In this document: positions 22,344 through 40,043 of the stretch, piece after piece
How positions within the stretch are numbered: position 1 is the stretch's first letter
How the letters are laid out: each line of letters begins with the position of its first letter
The notes under the pieces: generated by a model
Database searches by the model: none
Told to the model about the DNA's origin: nothing
What the model saw: the letters and a program-made list of their open reading frames with translations, nothing else
Position numbers and translations under genes: made by a program
IMG/VR virus record: IMGVR_UViG_3300033066_001295
Span: 128,001 to 192,000 of that record
Direction: 5' to 3' (one strand)
DNA from: a virus
Lineage: Duplodnaviria; Caudoviricetes
Length of the DNA stretch: 64,000 nt

Positions 22344-22468
22344 GCAAAAGGAGAAAATCGGAGAGAGTAATTACCGTGCTGCCGTTACACTAAAGGCTTT
22401 CACCTTTGGGAGTCGAACCCATCCGGTCGATAATCAGTCGAAGTAACTCTGTTCCTCGCTGCCTATGC
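22344..22468 (-). ncRNA. yrlA: Y RNA (YrlA-type) copy A
   Basis: Shared stem CAGCGAGGAACAGAGTTACTTC...CTCTCCGATTTTCT enclosing a T arm (GGTTCGACTCC), closed acceptor hairpin and D arm, in T-AS-D order. Confidence 0.85.
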
Positions 22469-22545
22469 TGGTCAGGTTAATGGGATTCGCACCCATGGTC
22501 TCTTCGTCCCGAACGAAGCGTGATACTAGGCTTCACTATAACCTG
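22469..22545 (-). tRNA. tRNA-Pro(CGG)
   Basis: Cloverleaf, loop TTCGGGA, CCA. Confidence 0.9.
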
Positions 22546-22552
22546 TTAAATA

Positions 22553-22706
22553 TGTCAGAGAAAATTGAAGAGCGGTATTTTTCGGTGCTCTACTATTAAG
22601 CTATAGTGGAATTGAAATCTCGATCATGAGACTTCAATTCCACCAAGGGGAATTGCACACCCTACACCCGTCTTGAATGAAGTAACGCTTTTTCTCGCTG
22701 CTGACA
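22553..22706 (-). ncRNA. yrlA: Y RNA (YrlA-type) copy B, long acceptor hairpin
   Basis: Shared stem motif; T-AS-D order with an ~18-bp closed acceptor stem. Confidence 0.85.
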
Positions 22707-22707
22707 C

Positions 22708-22784
22708 TGGCGTTCCTGAGAGGAATTGCACCCCCATCTTTCGCGTTCGATGCGCGAAGCTCTAGTCTGTTAAGCTACAGGAAC
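22708..22784 (-). tRNA. tRNA-Arg(TCG)
   Basis: Cloverleaf, loop CATCGAA (A33), CCA. Confidence 0.8.
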
Positions 22785-22785
22785 A

Positions 22786-23241
22786 TTAACTTTCACCGAC
22801 GTATGTCACGCCACAGGCGTTACACACATATTTTGAAGAATCGCCATTCGGTGGATGACGAAAAACATTGCAGCCACAGTCACACCGGAATGACTGTCCG
22901 CCAGAAAGCCTCACCATTCTGTCCACGTCAGGATCAGCCCAGTTGGCTACCTTCTCAGGCACAGAACGCTGGGTTCTCAGTTCAAACAAGCCTTTGAGGT
23001 CAGACTCCTGTTCCATGATCAATCGAGCATAAAAGGCACGATGGTTATTGCAGAGTTTGAAGTCAGGATCAGTTGTGCTGAGTCCTACCTCCCATCTAAC
23101 AAGCTCATAGATCATGCTAATACCAAGCTTGGTCTTGCCACCCTTGGCTTTCACCCAGTCACGGGCAAAACCAACAAGAAGCTCATAGACCTTTGGGTTC
23201 TCTTTGTGGAACTTCTGGAACTCTTTTTCAAGCTTTGACAT
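22786..23241 (-). CDS. hypothetical phage protein with C-terminal Zn ribbon
   Basis: FHKENPKVY..FKLCNNHRAFYAR; CDCGC..CNAC; leaderless promoter at 23248..23275. Confidence 0.65.
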   Translation of the reverse strand: MSKLEKEFQKFHKENPKVYELLVGFARDWVKAKGGKTKLGISMIYELVRWEVGLSTTDPDFKLCNNHRAFYARLIMEQESDLKGLFELRTQRSVPEKVANWADPDVDRMVRLSGGQSFRCDCGCNVFRHPPNGDSSKYVCNACGVTYVGES

Positions 23242-23312
23242 TAGTTGACTATAACTAATACAAAACTCCTGTCAAATTGTTTTGAAAAGTCCGTTGAGTG
23301 TATGTATTTCTT

Positions 23313-23864
23313 ATGGAAGACTTAACGGGAAACATCTTCGGACTACTTACTGTTATAGGTCCAGCGAGCAAAGCTAACAAACAACGTGGCAGACGTTGGG
23401 AATGCCGCTGCTTGTGTGGTAAGCTAACCTCTGTACAAGGCTACAACCTAAAAAGAGGAAACACAAAATCGTGTGGATGTTTAGTCGGTGAAAAAATGAG
23501 GGGAAAATGTAACCCAAGATTCAAAGGTTATGAGGAAATCAGTGGGTCAAAATTATATGAGTACAAGAAAAATGCAAAACTTAGGGGGTTAAATTTTGAA
23601 GTCACTATTCAAGACCTTTGGGAGCAATTTCTAGCACAAAATCGAAAGTGTGCTCTAACTGGAGTAGAACTCACATTTCAAAAAACCATTTTAGACCGAG
23701 CATCAACAGCCTCTTTAGACAGAGTTGACAGCACACTAGGGTACACTAAAGGCAATATTCAATGGCTTCACAAAGATGTTAATTATATGAAATCAGACCT
23801 TCCACAGGAAGTATTCATACAAATCTGTAAACAAGTAGCATCTCAGCACGAAGGAAAACCATGA
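23313..23864 (+). CDS. HNH-like homing endonuclease
   Basis: DLTGNIFGLLTV..WECRCLCG..KSCGC; ASLDRVDSTLGYTKGNIQW. Confidence 0.85.
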   Translation: MEDLTGNIFGLLTVIGPASKANKQRGRRWECRCLCGKLTSVQGYNLKRGNTKSCGCLVGEKMRGKCNPRFKGYEEISGSKLYEYKKNAKLRGLNFEVTIQDLWEQFLAQNRKCALTGVELTFQKTILDRASTASLDRVDSTLGYTKGNIQWLHKDVNYMKSDLPQEVFIQICKQVASQHEGKP

Positions 23865-24163
23865 GGGGAGGGAGCCACTTTCACATCCTGTAGCTCCAAC
23901 CCATGTGCAGGCCGACAACGGCAATTCGCTGCTCCCCCCACTCATGGTTCAAAAAAAGTGTTTCCCATGCCAATGATTTTACGGCGGGTCTGGTTACCCG
24001 CTTTCACCTTCACGTCATTACCTCTTTCAGGCGGATTGTGACTGGCCTAGTCACTCTCTGACGGAGACAACCTCTCATAGGATTTGATAGGTATATGGGG
24101 GTGAAGCGCATCAATCAAACGAAGGGTACATTGCTGTCCCTAATTCGTCACTGACTGGGAAAT

Positions 24164-24285
24164 TGGTCGAACAGGAGGATTTTCACCACCGTCTCTGAGG
24201 AGCTATTAGAGCCAACCTTTTTGCACTCATTGCTTGTTGGTCATCTGTCTAGCCGTCTCCATCTCGCGTATGGGCACGCTGTTCG
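24164..24285 (-). ncRNA. tRNA-like RNA with enlarged anticodon arm
   Basis: Acceptor CGAACAG/CTGTTCG-ACCA, T-like arm, ~50-nt central hairpin. Confidence 0.55.
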
Positions 24286-24839
24286 ATAAAAGGAGTGTAT
24301 ATCACTCCGAGAAAATTGTCAACCACTACTTTGTGGTAGGCTCTGGCTGAGGTTTTGCCTTCAACATATCAGTCAAGAAGCTGAGAGTCTTGTCATGGGC
24401 TTGATCAGCCCCGTAGGAGCGGTTTATCTCAGCCCTGATGTCACCTTTAACTGTCTCTATGTCAGCCTTCATGTTAGAGATAGACGAGGCATAGACAGCA
24501 CTCTCATCAACGAGGTGCTTCACCCTTTCGATGGTAGCAGACTCAGTAGCTTTGGCCACTGCCCAAGATGATATACCATCCTTGAACTGAGTGAAGACAG
24601 CCCATATACCCAGAAAAAGCATTATCTGGTTGTTTGAGATGTTGATCCTCGGCTCCTCAGCAGGCATACCAAATAGGTAGGTGTGTGATGGTATTCCCAA
24701 GTGGAATTGCACCACTTCGAGCACCTTCGGAGAGTGCCATGCCTCTATTACATCATGGGAACTGGTGCTCACGACTGGAGTTGCACCAGCACTGCCACGC
24801 TTCTGAGACGTGTGCCTCCTGCTATTGGGCTACGTGAGC

Positions 24840-25187
24840 TTAATGATACAAAGCCGCAGATGCTCTGTGACGAGAGTATGGTTCAGGCTCGTCATCACCA
24901 TCATCAAGAAATTCAATCTTTGTCACTGTATGCGAGGTCTCATCAGCTTTCTCAAAGGGCTTGCCCATGTAATAGGCATATGCTTCATCCCGAGAGGCAT
25001 TGATGGTGGTGTAAAGGTAGTCACCGTCATCAAATGTCACCTTCAAAGCGTGTTTTTCAGGTTTGACCTTACCATAACGCAAGTCATCAGGCAACTCAGG
25101 AAGACCTCTTTGCTGCCTAATTTTAACCATTTCATCATGGTCCATACCTAGAGGTGACTCGTTCATCGAGCTAATGAAACTGTTCAT
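24840..25187 (-). CDS. hypothetical phage protein, putative virion internal protein
   Basis: N-terminus MNSFISSMNES. Confidence 0.55.
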   Translation of the reverse strand: MNSFISSMNESPLGMDHDEMVKIRQQRGLPELPDDLRYGKVKPEKHALKVTFDDGDYLYTTINASRDEAYAYYMGKPFEKADETSHTVTKIEFLDDGDDEPEPYSRHRASAALYH

Positions 25188-25195
25188 GTCAATAT

Positions 25196-25396
25196 CTACC
25201 CTGTTGAAGCAGTAAACTTGATTTTTGACTTCGGTATGTCGTGAGGTGTCTTGTATGAAGCCGACCTGAAACGGTGTGTATAGACGAAGAAGCCGTTGGC
25301 ATCCTTGCCCAAGCTCACCTCTTTCATGATCTCCTTCAGATCATCGGGCTTGGGGACGTTCTCCATTTCAGATTCAAACAGGTTGAGAAAGGTCAT
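25196..25396 (-). CDS. hypothetical protein, putative virion internal protein
   Basis: N-terminus MTFLNLFESE. Confidence 0.55.
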   Translation of the reverse strand: MTFLNLFESEMENVPKPDDLKEIMKEVSLGKDANGFFVYTHRFRSASYKTPHDIPKSKIKFTASTG

Positions 25397-25770
25397 GTGT
25401 TGTCAAATACCTATAAGTAGGCTTATACCTGTCAAATAACAAGCTTTGTTGAGTTACCTGACTGAACGCCCTCATTTCAGCAGCCAAAACTTCAGCATCT
25501 TTTTGGCTAAATCCGCCACCATCAAGTGCTCTTAGCTCAAGGATGTAATGACTGTCACGTAAAAAAGTTGAGTACTTGTAAGCTGGATGGACAATGTGAC
25601 AATTAACCCACACAACCACCTTATCAGAATCGGCCAGTCGAACAATATCAACAGGCCTATCTTTGAAAAAGCTTAGTAGTGGGAAAACCTCACCCACCAC
25701 ATTGAACTTGATGCCATTGAACTCGTACATCGGGTAATTACATCAGGTACACCTTGAATGTCAAATATTT

Positions 25771-25845
25771 TGGACGCCAGTAAGGGGATCGCACCCTTCT
25801 AGTTCGTTTTGCAGACGACTCCGCACTCTAGCCCGGTCACTGGCG
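25771..25845 (-). tRNA. tRNA-Cys(GCA)
   Basis: Loop CTGCAAA, U73, CCA. Confidence 0.8.
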
Positions 25846-25853
25846 ATTATAAA

Positions 25854-25928
25854 TGGAGCCACCAATGGGATTCGCGCCCATCTCTTCCGAATACCAATCG
25901 GATACATCGCTGTCTATGCTTTGGCGGC
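25854..25928 (-). tRNA. tRNA-Thr(GGT)
   Basis: Loop TTGGTAT, CCA. Confidence 0.9.
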
Positions 25929-26360
25929 AAAAGTTATATTTCTCGGCTCGATGACACCGTCATAGAGCACTGTGCCAACACTACTGAGGGAGGCTTGGTA
26001 GTAGCTTGAGGGTATTGATAGGTACCCATCAACAACCCACTCGGGGTGATTTTCGGTAAGTTTGGCAAACATTTCTTCAACCCTGTCTTCCAACTCTTTG
26101 GAAGTGGTACTGCCATACCCAACAGGTTCACTCAATGATGGCCTGTCAACCCGGAGGAGAGTTGTATCAACTAGGCAGCTAAGAACTACAGGTTCCCCAC
26201 CACCATCTGCTGCTTCAGCATAGTAGTAGGCAAGCTCAAACTTGTCTGATAAGCAAGGATTCTTCAGCCCATGAATTTTGATCGAAGAAACCCACTCGCT
26301 ATTTGTCCCGTGGTACAAGGTTACTGAGCTTTCAAACAGGCTGACAAAACTAGCTGACAT
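25914..26360 (-). CDS. ADP-ribosyltransferase-fold protein (LYHGT; ART/Tpt1-like)
   Basis: TLYHGT..SIKIHGL..LSDKFELAYYYA..PVVL; N-terminal FVSLFE. Confidence 0.6.
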   Translation of the reverse strand: MSASFVSLFESSVTLYHGTNSEWVSSIKIHGLKNPCLSDKFELAYYYAEAADGGGEPVVLSCLVDTTLLRVDRPSLSEPVGYGSTTSKELEDRVEEMFAKLTENHPEWVVDGYLSIPSSYYQASLSSVGTVLYDGVIEPRNITFAAKA

Positions 26361-26761
26361 ACTGATATGTAGCTATCAAAAAAATTTCAGTGTTCATGTG
26401 GGGAGAGGTCTCTTTCCTACCTTCAAAGTCAGCTTTCGCTTCTCATATCATCACATGAACTCCTGTTTGAGCAGACACCAAGTTAGTCCTTAGACCTTCC
26501 AGTGATGCTCGCCGGATAGCCCCCGGCTCTCAAATTGTTATGGTCTTTTATCACAATGGATCATATAGACCGGTCTCGTTGGAAGAAATCTTTCTTCTGG
26601 GTAGAAGCTGTTACAGACAAAAATGCCATCTGTCCTGCCCATGCTCTTCATTTCAAGCTCTTCCTGTGACCTCACCTCAATCACGATCTCATTCAGTGAG
26701 TAGCCTAGAGCCTTGGCTGTGCCTGTCTTACCAGACCCCATTGAGCCATAAATCAGAGTGA

Positions 26762-27154
26762 TCATTTCTTAGTGCCACTGGCAACGTAGGTTTTCAGTTG
26801 CTCCTTCAGTGCTTCCACAGCCAGATTGTAAATCTCAGGAACATCACGTTTTACAACCTCTGAATTGGCAATCTCAGGGAGAACGTACATCAGAGCTACG
26901 GTCTTACTGGAGGGAAGAACAGAGGATAGTGTGCCCAGCAAAAGGATAGCAGGCAGTGAAAATAGAAGCGACCACTTTGAGATAGAAGAAAATACTGGTT
27001 TGAGTTCCTTATCCACCCCTTTGTCATTGGATAAGAACAAAAACACAACTCCGAGAATGGCTAGGAGCACAGAGGCAAAGACTACCCCTCCACAGGTACT
27101 ACGTACCTCGTCGGCCATCTGCCACAGATATACATTGAATGGTGTTATTGACAT
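26762..27154 (-). CDS. membrane protein
   Basis: Two hydrophobic segments; leaderless promoter at 27161..27188. Confidence 0.65.
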   Translation of the reverse strand: MSITPFNVYLWQMADEVRSTCGGVVFASVLLAILGVVFLFLSNDKGVDKELKPVFSSISKWSLLFSLPAILLLGTLSSVLPSSKTVALMYVLPEIANSEVVKRDVPEIYNLAVEALKEQLKTYVASGTKK

Positions 27155-27195
27155 ACAGAGACTATATCAAGAGTTGACTTGAGGTCAAATGAAAA

Positions 27196-27270
27196 TGGAA
27201 GCCCATGTTGGTAACGCTCCAATCTTACTCCGGGTCAAAGCCGGATGCATTGCTTCTATGCTAATGGGCT
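27196..27270 (-). tRNA. tRNA-Gln(TTG)
   Basis: Loop CTTTGAC, CCA. Confidence 0.85.
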
Positions 27271-27414
27271 AAAAAGGTAAATAGCCGGTTACTATTCCGG
27301 CGTCCCTGAACCCGCTTGCTACAGGCTGGACAGTACTCCTTTTGGGCAAGCAGCCCCCGCAACTTCCCTGCGGACGGTATGGTGAGAAACCCTCTTTGCA
27401 AAAGGAGAGCGATA

Positions 27415-27470
27415 ACACCCATGACACACCTTCGTGTGTTTCGTCCTTTTTGGACTCATCAGATGGGAGT
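27415..27470 (-). ncRNA. type I hammerhead ribozyme
   Basis: CCCAT-CTGATGA-GTCC aaaaa GGAC-GAAA-CACAC gaag GTGTG-TC-ATGGG: complete core; predicted cut between 27423 and 27422. Confidence 0.92.
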
Positions 27471-27612
27471 CAAAGAAGTGGAATCACACATTTGCACAGC
27501 ACATGTTGCACCACTCACGCTGGGTAGGACAGTCTTCACATCCAGCAGGCTCACCAAGGGGGACTGACTCTCCCATAGGTGGCACCTCGCGTCTTATTCC
27601 GCCACTTTGATT

Positions 27613-27687
27613 TGGCAGCCATGGTAGGATTTGCACCCACTTAAAACACCTTCAGAGGGTGTCGCATATCTATTCTGCCACATGGCT
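27613..27687 (-). tRNA. tRNA-Gln(CTG)
   Basis: Loop CTCTGAA, G73, CCA. Confidence 0.85.
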
Positions 27688-27706
27688 ATAACACTTTAAC
27701 TCACAC

Positions 27707-28414
27707 TCATGCTGCTGCCCCCATTGCTTCGGCCATGGCGCGGGTTTCTTCGAGGTCAGGAACAACCACAGCCTTGGGCTTGGCACCCCAAGGCAAACCG
27801 AACCGCTTGGCGCAGATGGGGCCGTAGCCAACATCAGTGGAACGCTCATCATCCAAGCCACGGCTGCAAAAGCAGCAACAACCGGTGCGGTGACCATACT
27901 CAGCAGCAACCTTGGCAGGATCAGCGGCGAAGTTCTTCAGGAGGTCAACCACAGTGGAGTCATTGTCACGGCCAGCGAAGAACTCGCCTGACTCAGTGAC
28001 ACGGCCATAATAGGCACCACCGAAAGTAGGGCTGGAAACCATCAAGTTGCCGACATACTTGGACCGCTCACCGGCAAAGGAAATCTTCACCTTGTTGCCG
28101 GAGGCGGCGGAGAGGATGACGGCTGGACGCTTGAGGGCTGAGGCAGCCTTGATGAAGAGGTTCTTGATGCCACTCAAGTCGATCTGGGCGGCTGGAGTTG
28201 GAGCCACCTTGGGCGTTGCCAGCTTGTGAAACCAGAACAAACGGGCTGGAGTGAGGTTGTTTGGGTATGCCTCGACCAGAGACCGGGCGAAGGAGGGGTC
28301 ATTGAACTCCCCATTGGCGATTTTGGCAACCAGAGCTTCCTTTGCTTCTGCATCGGAATTGAACGGGCTGGTGATGACTTCGTTGTTCTTCGGATTGGTA
28401 AGTGTCGTGCTCAT
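27707..28414 (-). CDS. protein with C-terminal DUF6011-like Zn finger
   Basis: CCFCSRGLDDERS..VGYGPICA; leaderless start after the promoter at 28422..28449. Confidence 0.7.
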   Translation of the reverse strand: MSTTLTNPKNNEVITSPFNSDAEAKEALVAKIANGEFNDPSFARSLVEAYPNNLTPARLFWFHKLATPKVAPTPAAQIDLSGIKNLFIKAASALKRPAVILSAASGNKVKISFAGERSKYVGNLMVSSPTFGGAYYGRVTESGEFFAGRDNDSTVVDLLKNFAADPAKVAAEYGHRTGCCCFCSRGLDDERSTDVGYGPICAKRFGLPWGAKPKAVVVPDLEETRAMAEAMGAAA

Positions 28415-29568: not shown

Positions 29569-29574
29569 TTAAAT

Positions 29575-29704
29575 GATCAAAGGAAACTGAAGAGGGCAAA
29601 ATAGCTTTCGCTACTTCCCCATTAATCAACCATACCAATGTTATGGCTGATGGTGGGGAAGGCTGCCTTTCGGCAACGAAGTAGCCTGTTTCTCGCTGTT
29701 GATC
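29575..29704 (-). ncRNA. Y RNA-like copy C (non-tRNA second domain)
   Basis: gatcaa-CAGCGAGAAACAGGCTACTTC...CCTCTTCAGTTTCCT-ttgatc enclosing three hairpins, two with GAAA loops. Confidence 0.75.
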
Positions 29705-29778
29705 TGGTGGAACCGGACGGTAACCCTCCGTCGTTTGAGACATGCCATGCCCCCGTTCTAGTTTTGAACTACGATCCC
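29705..29778 (-). tRNA. tRNA-Ala(GGC)
   Basis: G3:U70, loop ATGGCAT, CCA. Confidence 0.85.
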
Positions 29779-32266: not shown

Positions 32267-32273
32267 TTTTGAA

Positions 32274-33851: not shown

Positions 33852-33858
33852 AAAAAAT

Positions 33859-34257
33859 TCACAATCGAAAACTATCAAAGTGACCACCTGCCACGTTAAC
33901 GTCACGACCGCACTGGCGAATGTACTCCAGAGCTTGACCCATGTCCAGCTTGATTTGCTTGCTTACAAGGTAGAGAGCAACGACATAGACAGACCGTGAA
34001 CGGCCTTCGTGGCAATGAACCAGCACCTTGGCACCCGGATCAGCACAGATGGCATCGAGAATGTTCAATGCTGCTGCATAAAGGGCTGGATGGTTTGCAC
34101 CGTCCACCATGCCAACATGAAAGTGGTTCACCCTGTGTGCCCATCCAACTCTCTGGTCTAGGTCATGGGCACAGTTGAGGATATGAGTGATCCCGTCTTG
34201 TGGTTGTGAAGCATCACGACTGTTACCGATCCATATTTGTGGCGTGATCTGGTTCAT
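33859..34257 (-). CDS. dual-specificity (Cys-based) phosphatase
   Basis: IWIGN, ITHILNCA, VLVHCHEGRSRS (HCx5R). Confidence 0.9.
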   Translation of the reverse strand: MNQITPQIWIGNSRDASQPQDGITHILNCAHDLDQRVGWAHRVNHFHVGMVDGANHPALYAAALNILDAICADPGAKVLVHCHEGRSRSVYVVALYLVSKQIKLDMGQALEYIRQCGRDVNVAGGHFDSFRL

Positions 34258-34366
34258 TGAAAGGGTGCATGTTGAGGGTTCTCACCTCTTTACAAGCTCA
34301 CATGCGGAGAGCTTACGGCTGTCACATCACATAATGATGATCTGGCTGTAACAGTGTTACCTGTCG

Positions 34367-34441
34367 TGGTACCCTTATCAGGAGTCGCACCTGAACTTAG
34401 ACTTTAGGAGAATCCCGTGCGGTCTATTACACTATAAGGGC
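34367..34441 (-). tRNA. tRNA-Arg(CCT)
   Basis: Loop CTCCTAA. Confidence 0.85.
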
Positions 34442-34447
34442 ATTAAC

Positions 34448-34523
34448 TGGCACTCGTGACAAGAGTTGCACTTGTACCTTACTCCTTAGAAGGGAGCCAT
34501 GCTGTCTATTACACCACACGAGC
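34448..34523 (-). tRNA. tRNA-Arg(TCT)
   Basis: Loop CTTCTAA. Confidence 0.85.
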
Positions 34524-34578
34524 TTAACTGAGATCAGGGTGCAACTCAATGAAAACTTTGCACCCTGTATCTATTTGT

Positions 34579-35013
34579 ATGAGAGAAAAAATTTTGGAAC
34601 TAAAAAAGCAAAACCCGGTATGGGGCTACAAGCGTATTGCAAAAAAATTAGGCTGTAGCCACAATACAGTAAAGTACCACCTTCTGACGACTGTCAGAAA
34701 AACCTACGCTACTAGGCAACAAGAAAGACGTGCTATGGTGATGATGTCACTGAAAATGCTGCACGGTGGCTGCTGTGTAAAATGTGGTTACAGCAAAGCC
34801 ATTACAGCCCTTCAGTTCCATCACAGAGACCCAAGTACAAAAGTTAAAATGGTATCACAGCTTATCCGTGAACACAATTTTACTGCTGCCCAAGAAGAAG
34901 CTGATAAGTGTGACCTTCTGTGTGCTAACTGCCATTTTGAGGTTCATGAGCAAGCCGACAAAACCTACATAAAATGGGCACAGCCTAGTCTGTTCGAGCC
35001 ACAGGAGCATTAA
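34579..35013 (+). CDS. HTH-HNH endonuclease
   Basis: GYKRIAKKLG HTH; CVKCGY..ALQFHHRDP..KCDLLCANCH. Confidence 0.85.
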   Translation: MREKILELKKQNPVWGYKRIAKKLGCSHNTVKYHLLTTVRKTYATRQQERRAMVMMSLKMLHGGCCVKCGYSKAITALQFHHRDPSTKVKMVSQLIREHNFTAAQEEADKCDLLCANCHFEVHEQADKTYIKWAQPSLFEPQEH

Positions 35014-35485
35014 TTTTTTCGTTGTGCCGTCGAACGGCTTCATCAAGGGTCTCACCCGGCTTCATGTCAATGTCGGGCATGTACCACACATTAGGAAAGT
35101 TTCCTCTTTTCTCAGGAGGTATGAGCACCCAGTCTATCTTCTTGTTGGGTGCCTCGTTCATAAAGCCAGAGACTTCACTTTAAGGCCAGTGTAAGGTGGT
35201 GGTTTCCTACCAATATACACCTTGTTACCTGATATGATGTCCTCAAGAAAAGCATCTTCACTTATGAAGGTGATCTGCTTCGTAATCTGGGGAACACCAT
35301 CCACCTCCACGTTAGGGAGAGATTTGACAGCTTTAGTGAGAAGCCTCTTGTTCATTTGTCAGCAGGAAGACTCAGAATGGCCTTCATGTCAATGAAGCTC
35401 TGCCTCTCGGTGAGCTTCTCAACCTTGCAGTTTTTGTGAGTGCATCCAAGGGGGGCACTGACACAGAAGAGGAGCAGGAAGAATT

Positions 35486-35908
35486 TCATGTGAGACCTTT
35501 CTTGATTGAAGCTGAAATTGCCTTCAGGAGTGGAACAAGCTCGTGCTTGTCGAGGTTATCCTTCACCACGTTGGCGTAGGAAGCATTGTACAAAGCTGTC
35601 ACTATGTCGATAACGGCCAGTGCCTCAGCAGATGAAGGCAGGTCCAGTTTCACGGATGAAAGTGCTTCAGTGAAGGCTTTTGGGTCAAAGTCCTTGCCGT
35701 CAGCAAAGGTGTCGATGGTGAGGGCGATGTCCCTCAAGTACTTGGTGGCAGCAGGCTGCTTTGAAACACCAATGCGAACCGCTGAAGGCACCGTGGCGTT
35801 CACCACTGTAACCGCCCTGACAGGATCAAAAGCTTTCTTGCCCTCCGGTGTGGTTGTGCATTGAACGAGGGTGACGGCAACAACTAGCGAAGTGAAAATT
35901 GATTTCAT
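35486..35908 (-). CDS. putative lipoprotein
   Basis: Signal peptide ending LVQC. Confidence 0.6.
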   Translation of the reverse strand: MKSIFTSLVVAVTLVQCTTTPEGKKAFDPVRAVTVVNATVPSAVRIGVSKQPAATKYLRDIALTIDTFADGKDFDPKAFTEALSSVKLDLPSSAEALAVIDIVTALYNASYANVVKDNLDKHELVPLLKAISASIKKGLT

Positions 35909-35970
35909 GTGGAAATGCTAGCTGATGATATTGAGGATGTCAAGGATTAACGAATCGCACCAATATAGAA

Positions 35971-36045
35971 TGGTATCCGTAACAGGAGTCGCACCTGTGT
36001 CTCAGCCTTCGCAAAGCTGAATTCTATCTACTGAACTATACGGAC
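35971..36045 (-). tRNA. tRNA-Arg(GCG)
   Basis: Loop TTGCGAA, CCA. Confidence 0.85.
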
Positions 36046-36095
36046 ATTAAAAAACCGGCCAAAATTGTGCATCATAGAGAGGCATGGTAGGTAAA

Positions 36096-36172
36096 TGGTT
36101 GCGGGAGTTGGATTTGCACCAACGCATACCAGCTTATGAGGCTGGTGACTTAAACTGCTTGTCGATCCCGCA
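36096..36172 (-). tRNA. tRNA-Met(CAT), fMet-like acceptor
   Basis: TGCGGGA/TCCCGCA-ACCA; loop CTCATAA. Confidence 0.8.
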
Positions 36173-36178
36173 ATGAAA

Positions 36179-36254
36179 TGGTGCTCCAAGAGAGACTTGC
36201 ACTCTCGTTGCCCAGATTAAGAGTCTGGTGTAATAGCTTCTATACGATTGGAGC
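36179..36254 (-). tRNA. tRNA-Lys(CTT)
   Basis: Loop CTCTTAA. Confidence 0.9.
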
Positions 36255-36258
36255 TTTG

Positions 36259-36333
36259 TGGCTCCCCATTTTGGACTCGCACCAAACTCACACAGCTTAA
36301 CAGGCTGGCCGCACACTCGGTGCGTTACGGGGA
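36259..36333 (-). tRNA. tRNA-Asn(GTT)
   Basis: Loop CTGTTAA, G73. Confidence 0.85.
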
Positions 36334-36381
36334 ATAAACGGTTAAAATTGTATTTTAGTTCTTAACCGACTACATATTTGT

Positions 36382-36897
36382 ATGACTAAAAAATGTTGTA
36401 GGTGTAAGATTGAGAAATCAGTTACTGATTTTGGCAAAATGTCTTCTGCCAAAGATGGTCTTCAAAGTAGGTGTAAGCCTTGTAATAGGGCTGTTGCTCT
36501 GGACTACTCAAGAAAATTCAAGGAGCGGAGCTACACTAACACAAAAGAACGGAAGAAGCGGATTACCACAGCTATATCAGAGGTGAAGCGACGTGCTGGA
36601 TGTGCTCTATGCACAGAAAGTGACCCTGTATGCTTGGTATTCCACCACCTTGACCCAACTCAAAAGGAGCTTCAGGTAAATGGTGCAACAAACCCATCTG
36701 TCCAAAGAATAACCCTAGAGGCAGTCAAATGTGAGGTAGTTTGCTGCAATTGTCACCGCAAGGTCCACTTTGGGAACATGGTCATAGACTCAAGGCGTGA
36801 TATAGACTTGTCCCCTATAGAGATGTTAGTGCCTAGAAAGGGACGAACAAAAAGGATGGTCCCTCCTGACGGTAACGCTCCGTCTTCTGCGAGTTAA
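36382..36897 (+). CDS. HNH endonuclease
   Basis: KKCCRCKIEK..DGLQSRCKPC; FHHLDP..KCEVVCCNCHRKVH. Confidence 0.85.
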   Translation: MTKKCCRCKIEKSVTDFGKMSSAKDGLQSRCKPCNRAVALDYSRKFKERSYTNTKERKKRITTAISEVKRRAGCALCTESDPVCLVFHHLDPTQKELQVNGATNPSVQRITLEAVKCEVVCCNCHRKVHFGNMVIDSRRDIDLSPIEMLVPRKGRTKRMVPPDGNAPSSAS

Positions 36898-36931
36898 AAG
36901 CTCGCTGCTATCACTAAAAAGCTTAGGAGGG
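36857..36931 (-). tRNA. tRNA-Lys(TTT)
   Basis: Loop CTTTTAA. Confidence 0.85.
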
Positions 36932-37066
36932 GAAAATTTGAGTAGAAGCATCCGGCACAGTTGATCAGCTTCTCTTGACAGTCCGGTGCCCGGTGATCAT
37001 CTGTCATCTCTGTCTGGTTGTCAGACATGCCTGACTTGCTACAATTGCAAAACAGTATGTATTGAC

Positions 37067-37666
37067 ATGAATATAGAACTAACTCAATTGACACAAGCAG
37101 TAAGCAATTCAGTGTCCTTGTCGAGTGCGCTGAAACTGCTCAAAAAGCCTGTAAACGGTAGTTACATGAAGAAACTCAAGAACCTCATCGAAGAGGCTAA
37201 CCTTGACACAGGCCATTTTACTGAACTAGGAGTAAAAAAGGTCCGCCCAAAGGAGTACAGGAAGTGCAAGCACTGCAATTCAGAGTTCTTGGTGAAATCT
37301 GACAACCTAGACAAACAGTGCTGCTCATATTCCTGCTCAAACAAATCAAAGCTAAGAGGACTAGCTGGTGTCAAAACCACCTATCGGTCTATCTGCTTTG
37401 AGCATCACCAGCACAAGTGCTGTGTCTGCCCAGAGACTAATGTTGTAGCTGTCCATCACATGGACGGTAACCACAAAAACAACACCCCCTCTAACTTAGT
37501 GCCCTTGTGCCCAACTCATCACACCTATGTTCACAGTAAAAAACTGAAACACTTGGTAGATGGCACAATCAAGGACTACTTAACCAAATGGTCGGCTATG
37601 CCGGACTTGCACCGTGACTCAACGCCCCAAACGTCGCGTGTTACTATTACACCACATAACCGATAA
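37067..37666 (+). CDS. HNH endonuclease
   Basis: VHHMDGNHKNNTPSNLVPLCPTHH. Confidence 0.85.
   Translation: MNIELTQLTQAVSNSVSLSSALKLLKKPVNGSYMKKLKNLIEEANLDTGHFTELGVKKVRPKEYRKCKHCNSEFLVKSDNLDKQCCSYSCSNKSKLRGLAGVKTTYRSICFEHHQHKCCVCPETNVVAVHHMDGNHKNNTPSNLVPLCPTHHTYVHSKKLKHLVDGTIKDYLTKWSAMPDLHRDSTPQTSRVTITPHNR
37589..37662 (-). tRNA. tRNA-Pro(TGG)
   Basis: Loop TTTGGGG, CCA. Confidence 0.85.
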
Positions 37667-37945
37667 AATGTGTGAAGGGCCGGGCTTTCACCGACACATG
37701 ATTTCTAAGAGTTGCAACTCCAATCACGGCGATAAGAGCGTCCCCTCATCGTGCATCTGCTGCCGCCTTCGCTGGAACCCTTGATAGGGCATAAAATTTC
37801 AGCAGGCTGCATGTCAAAGGAACCGTACAAATAGGCGAACCTTTGACCCTACACTTACAACACCCTCATGAAGGCAAAAGTAAGCATATAAAGGTACTGT
37901 CGTCCCATGGTCTGTAATCACTTGCAGCTACATATCTTCTGCTGA

Positions 37946-38019
37946 TGGCATCCCCGACTGGACTCGCACCAGCTTTTCCTGTTTGAGAGACAGGGTTCCT
38001 ACTCATAGAAGACAGGGAC
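37946..38019 (-). tRNA. tRNA-Glu(CTC)
   Basis: Loop CTCTCAA. Confidence 0.85.
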
Positions 38020-38141
38020 ATTGAAAAGGAAGCCCTTGAGTGAAGTCGAATCACCCACCTACCAGCTTTACACTTTCGATCCTTGGCACAAGGTTCACTG
38101 TGTAAGGTGCCTCTGGCAGGCTACCACAAAGGGCATAAAAT

Positions 38142-38218
38142 TGGCAACCGTGTTGGGAGTCCCACCCAATACATGTCTGGTTGAAAGCCAGACCTCTCCA
38201 GTCTTTGAATTCACGGTC
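38142..38218 (-). tRNA. tRNA-Glu(TTC), divergent D arm
   Basis: Loop CTTTCAA, CCA. Confidence 0.7.
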
Positions 38219-38226
38219 ATTGAAAT

Positions 38227-38301
38227 TGGCACTCCATGCGAGGCTCGCACTCACTTTGCCGCCTTGAAAGGGCGGAATCCTAACTCATAGATGAATGGAG
38301 T
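38227..38301 (-). tRNA. tRNA-Glu(TTC)
   Basis: Loop CTTTCAA. Confidence 0.85.
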
Positions 38302-38648
38302 ATTGAAATTTTACATGGCTGATCCCGTGGCTCTAGCAAGTTTCCCCGCCAGAGTTTTCGGCCTAGTTCTCCAGTTATTCCCCTGCTTGGGAGACTCCAC
38401 GGAGTGCAGGGCTAGATGTCCAAATGTCAGCCTACTTGTTGGACCCACGGGATCAACCATGCATTGAAATTTTGTCATTCAGGCGGGTGCCACATTGTGG
38501 GCACGGAATAGTTCCCCACACTCCGGCTGAAACTTCTTCAAGATGGCAGTTTGGCACTTCAATAACAAAGCCACACTGACATGCCACCTTAGTAGCTGCA
38601 CCAATGGCATAGTCAATGTCAGGTGACATGCTTAAAATTGCTTTCATA

Positions 38649-38721
38649 TGGTAGCAGGACGTGGAGTCTCACCACGATGAACAAGCTTATGAGGCTCGTT
38701 GGGTTAATCAACCTTCCTGCC
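38649..38721 (-). tRNA. tRNA-Met(CAT)
   Basis: Loop CTCATAA, short D arm. Confidence 0.75.
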
Positions 38722-38722
38722 G

Positions 38723-38784
38723 TGGTGGAGGTGACAACAACACTAAAAGGACTCTCACCTTTCAGTTATCACGTTGCCACCCCC
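38723..38784 (-). ncRNA. extended Ala-type minihelix RNA
   Basis: GGGGGTG.../...CACCTCC-A-CCA with G3:U70 and A73, capped by a T-like loop. Confidence 0.55.
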
Positions 38785-38837
38785 ATAAAATGCCTAGCCG
38801 CCTGTAAAGGCAACAGCCCGGTAAAGGGTTTTCGGCT

Positions 38838-38914
38838 TGGTGCTCACAGAGGGAGTTGCACCCTCACTGCCATGGTCCTTAGCCATGTGCCTCCTGCTGT
38901 TGGGCTATGTGAGC
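38838..38914 (-). tRNA. tRNA-Leu(AAG), short V-loop
   Basis: Loop CTAAGGA, A73. Confidence 0.8.
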
Positions 38915-38991
38915 AATTGAAAGCAGAGCGGCAACCAGAAGCTCCTGTTTACACATGAGCTAGTTTAGCGTTTAGGTTGCTGCCCTGCAAA

Positions 38992-39067
38992 TGGAGCCTC
39001 GCTGAGGACTTGCACCCCACGTATCCTGCTTACAAAACAGGTGCATCGCTGTCTATGCTTCCGAGGC
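38992..39067 (-). tRNA. tRNA-Thr(TGT)
   Basis: Loop TTTGTAA. Confidence 0.9.
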
Positions 39068-39073
39068 AAAAAT

Positions 39074-39158
39074 TGGTCGGCTTGGAGGGACTTGCACCCT
39101 CAAGAACTGATGATTTTGAGTCAACCGCTTCTGCTATTTCGCTTTCGTTCACAAGCCG
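39074..39158 (-). tRNA. tRNA-Leu(CAA), atypical D region
   Basis: Loop CTCAAAA, CCA. Confidence 0.75.
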
Positions 39159-39222
39159 TAAAAGCTCCGGGTCACCAGTTAATTCTGATCACTATGCATC
39201 GCGCGTTTTACCGCGACCCGAT

Positions 39223-39306
39223 TGGTAGGCGTGGCGAGACTTGCACTCGCATGAATTTCTTCGCTGGTTCCTAAAACCAGTGCGGCTGCTATTACGCCAC
39301 ACGCCC
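39223..39306 (-). tRNA. tRNA-Leu(TAG)
   Basis: Loop TTTAGGA, V-arm. Confidence 0.9.
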
Positions 39307-39313
39307 ATAAAAA

Positions 39314-39381
39314 AGGTGGTGTTCTGTCTATTAAACTACCAGTCTCTCGACCGTGTCGGAGTTGCACCCACATTTCCACCT
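39314..39381 (-). ncRNA. stand-alone circularly permuted tRNA-like module (T-AS-D)
   Basis: AGGTGG/CCACCT ends enclosing a T arm (TGCAACT), closed acceptor (GAGA loop) and D arm TAGTTTAATAGACAGAAC. Confidence 0.7.
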
Positions 39382-39383
39382 AC

Positions 39384-39477
39384 TGGCGGATGGCAACGGA
39401 CTTGCACCGTGTGCCCCACTAAAGAGACACGATCTGTTTAGCAAACAGTCCCGGCACGCTTGTCCGGTTTACCATCC
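39384..39477 (-). tRNA. tRNA-Ser(GCT)
   Basis: Loop TTGCTAA, long V-arm. Confidence 0.9.
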
Positions 39478-39485
39478 ATAAAGAC

Positions 39486-39625
39486 TCAGGAAGAAAATCG
39501 AAGAGGGAGTGTTATCACACCGTGTAACGGGTGCTGCTCGACCGTTGAGCGTATTCTCTAATTTTGGGCAGAGGATACTGGAGTTGAACCAGTTGTTGAA
39601 GTAGCCCTGTTTCTCGCTGTCCTGA
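39486..39625 (-). ncRNA. yrlA: Y RNA (YrlA-type) copy D
   Basis: Shared stem; T arm CTGG-TTCAACT-CCAG, closed acceptor, D arm GCTCAACGGTCGAGC, one extra hairpin. Confidence 0.85.
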
Positions 39626-39674
39626 TGGCGGATGGCAGAGGATTCACACCTCCTGCACAAGTAAATGACCACCC
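39626..39674 (-). ncRNA. mini-tRNA (acceptor plus T arm, GCCA)
   Basis: GGGTGGT/GCCATCC-G-CCA and GAGG-TGTGAAT-CCTC. Confidence 0.6.
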
Positions 39675-39681
39675 ATAATTA

Positions 39682-39808
39682 ACAAGAGAAAGTTGAGTAG
39701 AGTATGACAGCTTTCGCTGTTCGGTTGGAGTCGCACCAACTAATGTCTGATTTGTAGTCAAATGCCCAACTGGTAGGCGTCGAAGTAACTCTGGCTCTCG
39801 CTGCTTGT
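39682..39808 (-). ncRNA. Y RNA-like copy E (anticodon arm followed by T arm)
   Basis: Shared stem enclosing a hairpin, TTTGA-CTACAAA-TCAGA, GTTGG-TGCGACT-CCAAC and a GAAA hairpin. Confidence 0.75.
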
Positions 39809-39809
39809 C

Positions 39810-39877
39810 TGGAGCCGGTGGTCACGGTTATTATGGCAAGCCTTTCGGCTATTCCAGTTCACAACGTGACCCCCAGC
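39810..39877 (-). ncRNA. CCA-terminated hairpin RNA
   Basis: GCTGGGGGTCACG/CGTGACCACCGGC-T-CCA. Confidence 0.5.
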
Positions 39878-39884
39878 ATTAGAT

Positions 39885-39968
39885 GAAGAAAGAAAATCGG
39901 AGAGAGGTATTAATGGCACGAGGCCATTTTCGTATTCATCGAAGTAACTCTTTTCCTCGCTGTTCTTC
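39885..39968 (-). ncRNA. minimal Y RNA-like copy F
   Basis: gaagaa-CAGCGAGGAAAAGAGTTACTTC...CTCTCTCCGATTTTCT-ttcttc with two short hairpins. Confidence 0.8.
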
Positions 39969-40043
39969 TGGAGCGATCAACGGGACTTGCACCCGTAGTC
40001 CCATCCTTGGCAAGGATGTGCTTTTCTATTAAGCTATGACCGC
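39969..40043 (-). tRNA. tRNA-Gly(GCC)
   Basis: Loop TTGCCAA, U73. Confidence 0.9.

What the first reader, a model, noticed from the sequence alone, without database searches (positions are those of the whole stretch)
22344..39971. Every Y RNA starts 0-1 nt after a CCA end, suggesting tRNA punctuation with dummy tRNAs
Seen: copies A, B, C and F directly follow the CCA of tRNA-Pro, -Arg, -Ala and -Gly. Copy D follows the CCA of a mini-tRNA (39626-39674) and copy E follows a CCA-ended hairpin (39810-39877). Several unassigned structured RNAs also abut CCA ends. Inference: host tRNA-processing nucleases excise these RNAs from the polycistron, and non-decoding CCA elements are retained as processing signals.
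Basis: partly seen in the sequence, partly recalled or inferred. Interest (0 to 1): 0.7.

Follow-up and report, generated by a model that had tools for sequence, protein, structure and literature searches.

The report
Phage Y-like RNAs abutting tRNA CCA ends
In a 208-kb phage that encodes a Ro60 protein, all six copies of a Y-RNA-like small RNA begin at the nucleotide right after the CCA end of a tRNA or a tRNA-like stub, which suggests (without RNA data) that they are cut out of a long transcript by the host's tRNA-trimming enzymes.

Summary
The genome holds exactly six copies of one RNA family, all on the minus strand. They share a 5' motif (CAGCGAG, then ..YTACTTC) and a 3' motif (..TTTYCT). 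In each copy the closing helix starts at the base after an encoded CCA. The upstream elements are tRNA-Pro, tRNA-Arg, tRNA-Ala, tRNA-Gly, a 49-nt acceptor/T-arm mini-tRNA and a 68-nt CCA-tailed hairpin. The spacing is 0 nt in 6 of 6 copies. CCA-to-tRNA junctions in the same array have a median spacing of 6 nt (Fisher p = 6e-4).

Each copy is followed after 4-8 AU-rich nt by the 5' end of another tRNA or tRNA-like element. The shared stem is supported by covariation. It aligns with four RNAs that lie beside Ro60 in Streptomyces phage BRock. Two related metagenomic phages keep the CCA|Y junctions despite cassette swaps.

"TRNA punctuation" is the best reading, but it is inferred. No RNA data could be obtained and the nuclease is unknown. 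The idea that the dummy elements are kept as signals is only partly supported. CCA minihelices also occur elsewhere in the array. One relative has a poorly folding CCA-ended insert in front of a copy. BRock separates its Y RNAs without tRNA-like elements.

T4 (rnaC and rnaD beside tRNA-Arg) is an old precedent, so this is a new variant of a known kind. Other notes of this scan already flagged the six Y RNAs on this same stretch.

The parts
2572..4077 (-). Ro60/Rsr ortholog gene (501 aa)
   Evidence: Pfam TROVE E=1.3e-18 plus a weak Ro60 vWA match. About 43% identical to bacterial Ro60 proteins.
23248..23275 (-). Promoter-like site (TTGACA-16-TATAGT) upstream of the unit ORF / tRNA-Arg / B / tRNA-Pro / A / tRNA
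   Evidence: 11 of 12 consensus matches. Consensus match only.
22708..22784 (-). tRNA-Arg(UCG) with encoded CCA (22710-22708)
22552..22707 (-). Y-like copy B. Closing stem GUGUCAG/CUGACAU starts at the base after the CCA. Followed by AUUUAA (22551-22546) and then tRNA-Pro.
22469..22545 (-). tRNA-Pro(CGG) with encoded CCA
22344..22468 (-). Y-like copy A. Contains a T-arm-like hairpin. The closing helix is imperfect. Followed by AUUU (22343-22340) and then a tRNA(CAU) at 22339-22265.
29705..29778 (-). tRNA-Ala(GGC), G3:U70, encoded CCA. Called by Rfam only.
29575..29704 (-). Y-like copy C. Closing stem GAUCAA/UUGAUC. Followed by AUUUAA and then tRNA-Pro(GGG) at 29568-29492.
39969..40043 (-). tRNA-Gly(GCC) with encoded CCA
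39885..39968 (-). Y-like copy F, the shortest at 84 nt. Closing stem GAAGAA/UUCUUC. Followed by AUCUAAU.
39810..39877 (-). Non-decoding 68-nt hairpin: a stem of about 12-13 bp with one G-A mismatch, an inner GAAA-capped hairpin and a 3' tail UCCA.
   Evidence: Fold is -31.5 kcal/mol, z = -4.7. 66 of 68 bases identical in L160, and both changes keep pairing.
39681..39809 (-). Y-like copy E. Closing stem GACAAG/CUUGUU. Followed by AAUUAU.
   Evidence: The ortholog in L160 shows compensatory changes.
39626..39674 (-). Non-decoding 49-nt mini-tRNA: 7-bp acceptor stem, 14-nt linker, 5-bp T stem with a 7-nt loop, then G-CCA. No D arm or anticodon arm.
   Evidence: Its 3' half aligns with the neighbouring 94-nt class-II tRNA-like element. 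Present in front of D in both relatives.
39486..39625 (-). Y-like copy D. Closing stem UCAGGA/UCCUGA. Followed by GUCUUUAU.
39384..39477 (-). 94-nt tRNA-like element with the same acceptor stem as the mini-tRNA and a CCA end. Not called as a tRNA.
   Evidence: z = -3.9.
39307..39383 (-). 77-nt structured non-tRNA element. Its closing stem begins 2 nt after the preceding CCA. Followed by UUUUUAU and then tRNA-Leu(UAG).
   Evidence: 100% identical in L158.

Best explanation
The six RNAs are Ro60-partner (Y-like) RNAs that have no promoters of their own. They are transcribed as part of mixed mRNA/tRNA/Y polycistrons.

Each copy is released by two cuts of the tRNA-maturation type.
- The first cut falls exactly 3' of the encoded CCA of the upstream tRNA or tRNA-like element. 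It creates the aminoacylatable 3' end of that element and the base-paired 5' end of the Y RNA in one step.
- The second is RNase P cleavage at the 5' end of the next tRNA or tRNA-like element. It leaves the Y RNA with a 4-8 nt AU-rich 3' tail.

The enzyme at the CCA|Y junction is most likely a structure-measuring tRNA 3' endonuclease that cuts after CCA (RNase Z/BN type). Less likely candidates are RNase P acting on the Y stem, or RNase E.

Where two Y RNAs would otherwise be neighbours (F-E-D), stripped-down acceptor-stem elements with CCA ends stand between them. They supply these cleavage sites.

Shown: the anatomy, the spacing statistics, the covariation of the stem, the conservation in relatives and the lack of space for a promoter.

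Inferred: co-transcription, the position of the cuts, the enzymes and the role of the dummy elements.
For: 1. Spacing is 0 nt in 6 of 6 copies. CCA-to-tRNA junctions in the same array have a median of 6 nt (Fisher p = 5.7e-4). All six closing stems differ in sequence, and the four upstream tRNAs differ, so this is not one duplicated tRNA+Y block.

2. The shared stem is real. On nine sequences 98.7% of cells are paired and 9 pairs show double-sided changes. No shuffle of 500 reached the observed value, and slid controls reach at most 67%. Its first pair is the base after the CCA.

3. All 32 called tRNAs encode CCA. Most tRNA 5' ends carry a 4-8 nt AU-rich leader, and the same leader follows each Y copy.

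4. No minus-strand promoter-like site lies in front of any copy. One strong site lies upstream of the ORF that heads the B/A unit.

5. Relatives keep the junctions through rearrangements.
- L160/L161 have an extra 50-nt insert between tRNA-Gly and F. The insert again ends in CCA directly before F.
- L158/L159 lack the hairpin and E, which are replaced by an ORF. They keep the mini-tRNA-CCA|D junction.

6. Substitutions in the dummy elements keep pairing. In the mini-tRNA these are G3/A3 opposite U and U7/C7 opposite G. In the hairpin, 2 of 2 changes are compatible.

7. Enzymes that cut just after an encoded CCA exist.
- Archaeal RNase Z does so and needs only the acceptor stem (PMC7479834).
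- RNase E does so at the E. coli proline tRNAs (PMC5291269).
- Neighbouring tRNA units activate RNase E (PMC9841416).

8. No phage-encoded RNase Z, RNase E, CCA-adding enzyme or RtcB was found, so host enzymes are implied.

9. T4 shows the same layout in its annotation: tRNA-Arg-CCA, 1 nt, rnaD, 6 nt, rnaC.
Against:
- The junction sequences (CCA|GA, GC, GU, UC, directly in a helix) do not fit the RNase E preference for an AU-rich single strand, (A/G)N|AU (PMC5291269, PMC5222698).
- CCA inhibits some bacterial RNase Z enzymes (PMC7479834, B. subtilis enzyme). The host is unknown.
- The Y copies lack the RCCA tail and the T loop that bacterial RNase P uses.
- The insert in front of F in L160 folds no better than shuffles. 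What is conserved may therefore be the CCA and not tRNA likeness.
- In L158, copy F is followed by an ORF and not a tRNA-like 5' end.
- CCA minihelices also occur where no Y RNA follows: 29872-29827 and 38784-38723.
- BRock separates four homologous RNAs by 7-12 nt linear spacers without tRNA-like elements.
Confidence: 0.58

Rival explanations
1. Seamless packing. The array is a string of modules with no waste. tRNA modules carry their own 4-8 nt leader and Y modules carry none, so a Y module always touches whatever precedes it. In this array that is nearly always a CCA-ended element. The Y stem itself directs its 5' cut, for example as an RNase P hairpin substrate. The upstream CCA elements are independent RNAs (decoys, remnants or chargeable minihelices) and not signals for Y maturation.
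For: - One tRNA-tRNA junction is also 0 nt (24763/24762), so the host can cut directly after a CCA when the downstream partner is the substrate.
- G is at +1 in 5 of 6 copies, as in most tRNAs.
- CCA minihelices occur elsewhere without a Y RNA.
- BRock Y-like RNAs are released without tRNA-like spacers.
- The L160 insert is poorly structured.
Against: - The Y stems lack a T loop, an RCCA tail and the AU-rich leader that precedes most tRNAs of the array (10 of 11 junctions).
- Both dummy elements keep an acceptor-type stem plus NCCA under compatible substitutions.
- In L158 the mini-tRNA is kept in front of D even though E and the hairpin are gone.
Confidence: 0.25
2. Footprint of module shuffling. 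Cassettes in this array move by recombination or homing (several small nuclease-like ORFs lie in the array). They join at the short CCA microhomology. The CCA|Y adjacency then records how copies spread and not how the RNA is processed.
For: - The relatives are mosaics: 100%-identical blocks sit next to replaced blocks.
- The L160 insert is bounded by CCA on both sides.
- An ORF replaces the hairpin and E in L158.
- An HNH-like ORF lies at 40307-40822 (weak match).
Against: - A 3-nt homology is a weak guide.
- The join is exact to the base in six copies with six different closing stems.
- Functional tRNAs still need a free CCA end, so processing at the junction is required whatever its origin.
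Confidence: 0.08
3. Fusion RNAs. The upstream element and the Y-like RNA stay joined. The tRNA or mini-tRNA acts as the tRNA-like domain that bacterial YrlA RNAs carry internally.
For: - Copies C and F have no internal T-arm-like hairpin.
- YrlA RNAs are known to contain a tRNA-like domain (PMC4201824).
Against: - tRNA-Pro, -Arg, -Ala and -Gly would then be unchargeable.
- Copies A, D and E already have internal T-arm-like hairpins.
- The BRock homologs are not fused to tRNAs.
Confidence: 0.05
4. The repeats are not expressed stable RNAs. They would be DNA-level repeats or regulatory sites, and the adjacency would be incidental.
For: No expression data. No Rfam Y RNA or YrlA hit in the window.
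Against: - Strong RNA-type covariation, including G-U pairs, on one strand only.
- Homology of both stem halves to RNAs beside Ro60 in BRock.
- A Ro60 gene in the genome.
Confidence: 0.03

Closest known systems
Phage T4 stable RNAs rnaC and rnaD (species 1 and 2) in the T4 tRNA cluster
   Same: Non-tRNA stable RNAs lie inside a phage tRNA cluster on the same strand. In the T4 record, rnaD starts 1 nt after the CCA of tRNA-Arg and rnaC starts 6 nt after rnaD. From my own knowledge, they are co-processed with the tRNAs.
   Different: T4 has no Ro60 gene and its two RNAs have no assigned partner. rnaD itself ends in CCA. There are no six dispersed paralogs and no stripped-down tRNA-like spacers. 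Sequence relatedness to the present family was not tested.
Bacterial and phage Y RNAs (YrlA/YrlB, Rfam RF02553; Yrl1/Yrl2 of Thermus phage phiLo)
   Same: - A Ro60 ortholog is in the genome.
- The 5' and 3' ends pair in a stem with an invariant bulged-C helix around a CGA core.
- Several copies carry T-arm-like hairpins.
- Y RNAs of M. smegmatis come from one precursor and one is cut by RNase P (PMC4201824).
- Phage Y-like RNAs are known (PMC4201824, PMC12135203).
   Different: - The copies lie 18-36 kb from Ro60 and not beside it.
- The motif reads AGCGAG and not GNCGAA/CGAA.
- There is no Rfam hit.
- There are six copies.
- Each is placed directly after a CCA end, which the papers read here do not describe.
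Four tandem Y-like RNAs between tRNA-Asn and Ro60 in Streptomyces phage BRock (NC_048650)
   Same: Both halves of the shared stem align: GCG ... YTACTTC at the 5' side and TC..TTTT(T)CT at the 3' side. They lie inside a 29-tRNA array. The first starts 4 nt after the discriminator of tRNA-Asn. Two of them get sub-threshold YrlA hits.
   Different: They lie directly upstream of Ro60. tRNA-Asn has no encoded CCA. The four RNAs are separated by 7-12 nt linear spacers; two read AACUUCA and one AAUUUCAA. No tRNA-like elements separate them.
tRNA punctuation and tRNA-guided release of other RNAs. Examples from my own knowledge: mitochondrial transcripts, MALAT1/mascRNA, murine gammaherpesvirus 68 tRNA-miRNA units, plant tRNA-snoRNA genes.
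   Same: tRNA or non-charged tRNA-like structures in a polycistron direct RNase P and RNase Z. The flanking non-tRNA RNAs acquire their ends from those cuts.
   Different: Those systems are eukaryotic or organellar and use CCA-less tRNA-like elements. Here the CCA is encoded and the cut must fall after it. The cargo is a family of Ro60-type RNAs in a bacterial virus.

Membership tests
Bacterial/phage Y RNA (YrlA/YrlB type) | A Ro60/Rsr (TROVE) protein is encoded by the same genome | tested here: met
   ORF 2572-4077(-). TROVE E=1.3e-18 and a weak Ro60 vWA match.
Bacterial/phage Y RNA (YrlA/YrlB type) | Gene lies next to the Ro60 gene | tested here: not met
   The copies lie 18-36 kb from the Ro60 ORF, inside the tRNA array.
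Bacterial/phage Y RNA (YrlA/YrlB type) | 5' and 3' ends pair in a stem that carries the conserved Ro-binding helix (bulged C; GNCGAA or CGAA motif) | tested here: inconclusive
   The stem with an invariant A-U, G-C, [C], G-U, A-U helix is supported by covariation. The motif reads AGCGAG, so only the CGA core matches the published GNCGAA/CGAA (PMC4201824, PMC12135203).
Bacterial/phage Y RNA (YrlA/YrlB type) | Match to the Rfam models (RF02553 YrlA, RF00019 Y_RNA) | tested here: not met
   No hit at E<=5 over 21500-42500. The BRock homologs hit RF02553 only through their tRNA-like domain, at 32-33 bits against a cut-off of 69.
Bacterial/phage Y RNA (YrlA/YrlB type) | Homology to RNAs that flank a Ro60 gene elsewhere | tested here: met
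   The 5' and 3' stem halves align with four RNAs between tRNA-Asn and Ro60 in Streptomyces phage BRock. GCG, A and TACTTC are invariant.
Bacterial/phage Y RNA (YrlA/YrlB type) | Binding to Ro60 | not testable with these tools
   Needs co-purification or a gel-shift assay.
tRNA-punctuated processing of a polycistron | The non-tRNA RNA is flanked directly by tRNA or tRNA-like structures | tested here: met
   Spacing is 0 nt after a CCA-ended element in 6 of 6 copies. A tRNA or tRNA-like 5' end follows 4-8 nt downstream in 6 of 6 in the window. In relative L158, copy F lacks the downstream element.
tRNA-punctuated processing of a polycistron | No independent promoter for the punctuated RNA | tested here: inconclusive
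   No minus-strand sigma-70-type site lies in front of any copy. Only one promoter type was scanned and the host is unknown.
tRNA-punctuated processing of a polycistron | Mature ends coincide with the tRNA borders and depend on RNase P/Z | not testable with these tools
T4-type stable RNAs of a phage tRNA cluster | Stable non-tRNA RNA that starts 0-1 nt after a tRNA CCA in the same transcription unit | tested here: met
   The layout was compared with the T4 record. Sequence homology to rnaC and rnaD was not tested.

The most novel reading that the evidence does not exclude
This phage has turned tRNA 3'-end maturation into a general release device. A cut after an encoded CCA frees each of six Ro60-partner RNAs, and probably several near-leaderless mRNAs whose AUG lies 1-3 nt after a CCA. 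Stripped-down acceptor-stem minihelices that decode nothing are kept only as guides for that cut. This would be a bacterial-virus counterpart of mitochondrial tRNA punctuation and of herpesvirus tRNA-miRNA units.
Probability: 0.3. Interest if true: 0.7.

Novelty: new variant of a known kind. Interest (0 to 1): 0.55.

Why it matters
How bacterial and phage Y RNAs get their ends is largely unknown. The one worked example is a single precursor in M. smegmatis. Here the sequence alone predicts the 5' end of six Y-like RNAs to the base, and each 3' end to within the 4-8 nt spacer before the next tRNA(-like) 5' end. It also predicts that their biogenesis is coupled to tRNA 3'-end formation. It offers natural minimal substrates, a 49-nt mini-tRNA and a 68-nt CCA hairpin, for asking which nuclease cuts after an encoded CCA in bacteria. 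If confirmed, it would show that non-decoding tRNA-like elements can be kept in phage genomes as processing punctuation. That would change how the many unassigned tRNA-like pieces in phage tRNA arrays are annotated.

Tried and rejected
1. Exact-motif scan of IMG/VR. There were 32 loci. Most (about 22) are the antisense strand of the tag-coding part of a phage tmRNA; this was checked on four of them and confirmed by ARAGORN in one (L027). The rest are coding sequence. No homologs were found.

2. The same motif in the metagenome collection.

3. Relatives found through Ro60. IMG/VR gave none. The 75% and 62% identical proteins lie on contigs that do not reach a tRNA array.

4. Relatives found through the 151-aa ORF next to copy B. 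The hits are unrelated phages without tRNA arrays.

5. The closest Ro60 in the cultured/complete collection is in a 635-kb uncultured phage (41.6% identity). It gave one relaxed-motif hit, which is chance, and there are no tRNAs near its Ro60.

6. A relaxed structural descriptor over the whole genome. It recovered B-F among about 115 chance hits. The only candidate for a seventh copy (26520-26372, GGCGAG) did not fold as a Y-like stem and was dropped.

7. Expression data.

8. Vibrio phage phiKT1024, which encodes Ro60. A structured RNA of about 85 nt lies between tRNA-Leu-CCA and a tRNA-like element 2 kb from Ro60. It has no recognisable Ro motif and its stem starts 5 nt after the CCA. Inconclusive and kept only as a lead.

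9. The mini-tRNA as an alanine minihelix. G3:U70 is present in the window but is A3-U70 in both relatives, so this reading is rejected.

10. The ORF that replaces the hairpin and E in L158 gave no Pfam nuclease match.

Full report
**Context.** The window is bases 128001-192000 of a 207.8-kb IMG/VR virus record. On the minus strand it carries:
- a Ro60/Rsr ortholog at 2572-4077 (TROVE E=1.3e-18, weak Ro60 vWA match)
- a tmRNA at 10065-10486
- a long array of tRNA genes interleaved with small ORFs between about 20.5 and 42 kb

ARAGORN tRNAs and Rfam adds 10 more. A simple acceptor-stem/NCCA scan finds about a dozen further tRNA-sized CCA-ended elements that neither program calls. All 32 called tRNAs encode their CCA.

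**Checking the observation.** A 22-nt motif (CAGCGAG-N4-AG-N-G-Y-TACTTC) occurs five times in the window, against 0.2 expected. A sixth copy has a spacer shorter by one base. No further copy exists in the whole genome.

The six copies run as follows, from the first base after the CCA to the last base of the closing stem:

| Copy | Coordinates (minus strand) | Upstream CCA-ended element |
|---|---|---|
| A | 22468-22344 | tRNA-Pro(CGG) |
| B | 22707-22552 | tRNA-Arg(UCG) |
| C | 29704-29575 | tRNA-Ala(GGC, G3:U70) |
| D | 39625-39486 | 49-nt element 39674-39626 |
| E | 39809-39681 | 68-nt hairpin 39877-39810 |
| F | 39968-39885 | tRNA-Gly(GCC) |

In B-F the base after the CCA is already the first pair of a 6-7 bp closing helix. 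The stems are GUGUCAG/CUGACAU, GAUCAA/UUGAUC, UCAGGA/UCCUGA, GACAAG/CUUGUU and GAAGAA/UUCUUC. Copy A is less regular, with one U-U mismatch in the register that starts at +1.

After each closing stem come 4-8 AU-rich bases and then the 5' end of a tRNA or tRNA-like element. The spacers are AUUU, AUUUAA, AUUUAA, GUCUUUAU, AAUUAU and AUCUAAU.

Spacing from CCA to Y is 0 in 6 of 6 copies. Spacing from CCA to the next tRNA or tRNA-like element in the same array is 0,1,4,4,6,6,6,6,8,8,16. Spacing from Y to the next tRNA or tRNA-like element is 4-8. The difference gives Fisher p = 5.7e-4 and Mann-Whitney p = 1e-3.

**Are these Y RNAs?** Nine sequences were aligned: the six copies plus three orthologs from relatives. 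They support a common stem made of four parts:
- the closing helix
- an invariant helix A-U, G-C, bulged C, G-U (G-C in copy C), A-U, formed by 5' AGCGA and 3' UU(C/U)CU
- two further helices

In this structure 98.7% of cells are paired and nine pairs show changes on both sides. No shuffle of 500 reached the observed values, and slid registers reach at most 67%.

The bulged C followed by G-U and A-U resembles the conserved Ro-binding helix of Y RNAs. That resemblance rests on my own knowledge of the vertebrate helix. The published bacterial motif is GNCGAA and the Thermus phage motif is CGAA (PMC4201824, PMC12135203). Here the sequence reads AGCGAG, so only the CGA core matches. Rfam gives no Y_RNA or YrlA hit in the window.

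Independent support comes from Streptomyces phage BRock. Its Ro60 gene sits inside a 29-tRNA array. It is preceded by four tandem RNAs, two of which give sub-threshold YrlA hits through their tRNA-like domains. Both halves of the BRock stems align with the present copies. GCG, A and TACTTC are invariant in the 5' half, and TC..TTTT(T)CT is shared in the 3' half. I therefore accept "Y-like RNA" as the working identity. Ro60 binding is untested.

**Relatives.** Direct motif scans gave nothing useful. Relatives were reached through the 301-aa ORF upstream of the D/E/F cluster. They are L158/L159, with 83% protein identity, and L160/L161, with 88%. Both are mosaics of identical and replaced cassettes.

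- **L160.** The junctions hairpin-CCA|E and mini-tRNA-CCA|D are kept. A 50-nt insert stands between tRNA-Gly and F, and it again ends in CCA directly before F. The insert barely folds and has no homolog in the window's genome.
- **L158.** tRNA-Gly-CCA|F is kept. The hairpin and E are replaced by a 163-aa ORF. The mini-tRNA still stands directly before D. Here F is not followed by a tRNA-like element.

Substitutions in the dummy elements keep pairing. In the mini-tRNA, position 3 is G or A opposite U, and position 7 is U or C opposite G. In the hairpin, both changes turn a Watson-Crick pair into G-U.

The 3' half of the mini-tRNA aligns with the neighbouring 94-nt class-II tRNA-like element that shares its acceptor stem. 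It therefore looks like a deletion derivative that kept the acceptor stem, the T arm and the CCA. G3:U70 is not conserved, which argues against an alanine-minihelix role.

**Mechanism.** With 0 nt between the CCA and the Y stem there is no room for a promoter. The sigma-70-type scan finds none on the minus strand in front of any copy. It finds one strong site (TTGACA-16-TATAGT) upstream of the ORF that heads the unit tRNA-Arg/B/tRNA-Pro/A/tRNA. Co-transcription is therefore the natural inference.

RNase P cleavage at the next tRNA or tRNA-like 5' end would set the Y 3' end, with a short tail. It would leave a tRNA-CCA-Y molecule. The four real tRNAs can only be charged if an endonuclease cuts exactly after the CCA, because a stable helix blocks 3' exonucleases. 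That same cut makes the Y 5' end.

Known enzymes that cut there include:
- archaeal RNase Z, which cuts after an encoded CCA and needs only the acceptor stem (PMC7479834)
- RNase E at the E. coli proline tRNAs, though within an AU-rich single strand (PMC5291269)
- RNase E is also activated by adjacent tRNA units, even ones lacking the D or T arm (PMC9841416)

The junctions here (CCA|GA, GC, GU, UC, immediately base-paired) do not fit the RNase E preference (PMC5291269, PMC5222698). I therefore favour a structure-measuring enzyme of the RNase Z/BN type, with RNase P acting on the Y stem as the main alternative. The one 0-nt tRNA-tRNA junction (24763/24762) shows the host can cut directly after a CCA. 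The phage itself encodes no detectable RNase Z, RNase E, CCA-adding enzyme or RtcB. The host is unknown, which limits this reasoning.

**The dummy-tRNA idea.** The two non-decoding elements in front of D and E have the minimal features that tRNA end-processing enzymes use: an acceptor-type helix and NCCA, plus a T arm in the mini-tRNA. They are kept in relatives, and they separate Y copies that would otherwise be adjacent. That fits a role as punctuation.

Several facts weaken the idea:
- Similar CCA minihelices occur elsewhere in the array without a Y RNA behind them (29872-29827 and 38784-38723).
- The L160 insert is hardly structured.
- BRock does without such elements.

I rate this part as plausible but not established.

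**Comparison with what is known.** Phage Y-like RNAs and Ro60 are known (PMC4201824, PMC12135203). Non-tRNA stable RNAs in a phage tRNA cluster are an old T4 observation. The T4 record shows rnaD 1 nt after the CCA of tRNA-Arg and rnaC 6 nt after rnaD. Large non-coding RNAs (GOLLD) also co-localise with tRNA arrays (PMC9569102). tRNA-guided release of other RNAs is established in mitochondria and in some eukaryotic and viral systems (my own knowledge).

I did not find a description of Y RNAs placed base-exactly after encoded CCA ends, or of non-decoding CCA minihelices between them. The finding is a new variant of a known kind.

**Verdict.** Interest is moderate to good (0.55). It rests on a clean, testable prediction of RNA ends and on natural minimal substrates.

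Noticed in passing
window 27417-27468 (-): Hammerhead type I ribozyme candidate between the two tRNA-Gln genes. It has the full conserved core (CUGAUGA ... GAAAC ... GUC) and scores 31.1 bits against the Rfam cut-off of 34. It could be a further self-processing site in the same polycistron.
   Followed up: partly
window 22263, 33776, 38647 and 29488 (-): Four ORFs (102, 80, 64 and 112 aa) start with ATG only 1 nt (three times, as CCA-U-AUG) or 3 nt after a tRNA CCA. There is no room for a ribosome-binding site. The background for such a start is 1.6% per position, and the observed count is 4 of 48 CCA ends. A cut after the CCA would give near-leaderless mRNAs. No PHROG match.
   Followed up: partly
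window 20492-39477 (-), for example 39158-39074, 38218-38142, 36333-36259, 33506-33423, 32681-32607, 31524-31450, 31230-31139, 25845-25771, 21770-21697: About a dozen tRNA-sized elements have a perfect 7-bp acceptor stem and NCCA, yet neither ARAGORN nor Rfam calls them as tRNAs. The true tRNA or tRNA-like count of the array is about 45.
   Followed up: no
window, all tRNAs of the array (for example 27616-27687): T loops read UGCRA where tRNAs normally have UUCRA. D loops carry AG where GG is usual. Another note of this scan (e1-5691493) reads it as an A18/G55 elbow.
   Followed up: no
window 29786-29822 (-) and 29827-29872 (-): An abiF RNA motif scores 37.9 bits against a cut-off of 37. It lies 4 nt after a 46-nt CCA-ended minihelix and 7 nt before tRNA-Ala. 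A weaker second match lies at 36054-36091.
   Followed up: no
window 38723-38784 (-): A 62-nt CCA-tailed hairpin (fold z = -3.8 with its flank) ends 1 nt before the likely true start of tRNA-Met(CAU) at 38721. ARAGORN's call 38726-38649 overlaps the hairpin's CCA.
   Followed up: partly
L170 (Streptomyces phage BRock, NC_048650) 8142-8627: Four tandem Y-like RNAs lie between tRNA-Asn and Ro60. Their stem halves are homologous to the present family. They are separated by 7-12 nt spacers, two ending AACUUCA and one AAUUUCAA. None is annotated in the record.
   Followed up: partly
L169 (Vibrio phage phiKT1024) 9691-9872: A structured RNA of about 85 nt (z = -2.2) lies between tRNA-Leu-CCA and an unannotated CCA-ended tRNA-like element, 2 kb downstream of the Ro60 gene. 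No Ro-type motif was recognised.
   Followed up: partly
L003-L034 (IMG/VR contigs of 100-200 kb): About 22 IMG/VR loci share one flanking sequence around the motif hit. In the one locus where ARAGORN called a tmRNA (L027) the hit is the antisense of its tag-coding part (tag ends ...GEVTLALAA). Unrelated to the finding.
   Followed up: yes
L158 11945-12436: A 163-aa Cys-rich ORF with no Pfam match occupies the place held by the CCA hairpin and copy E in the window and in L160. This is cassette exchange inside the array.
   Followed up: partly
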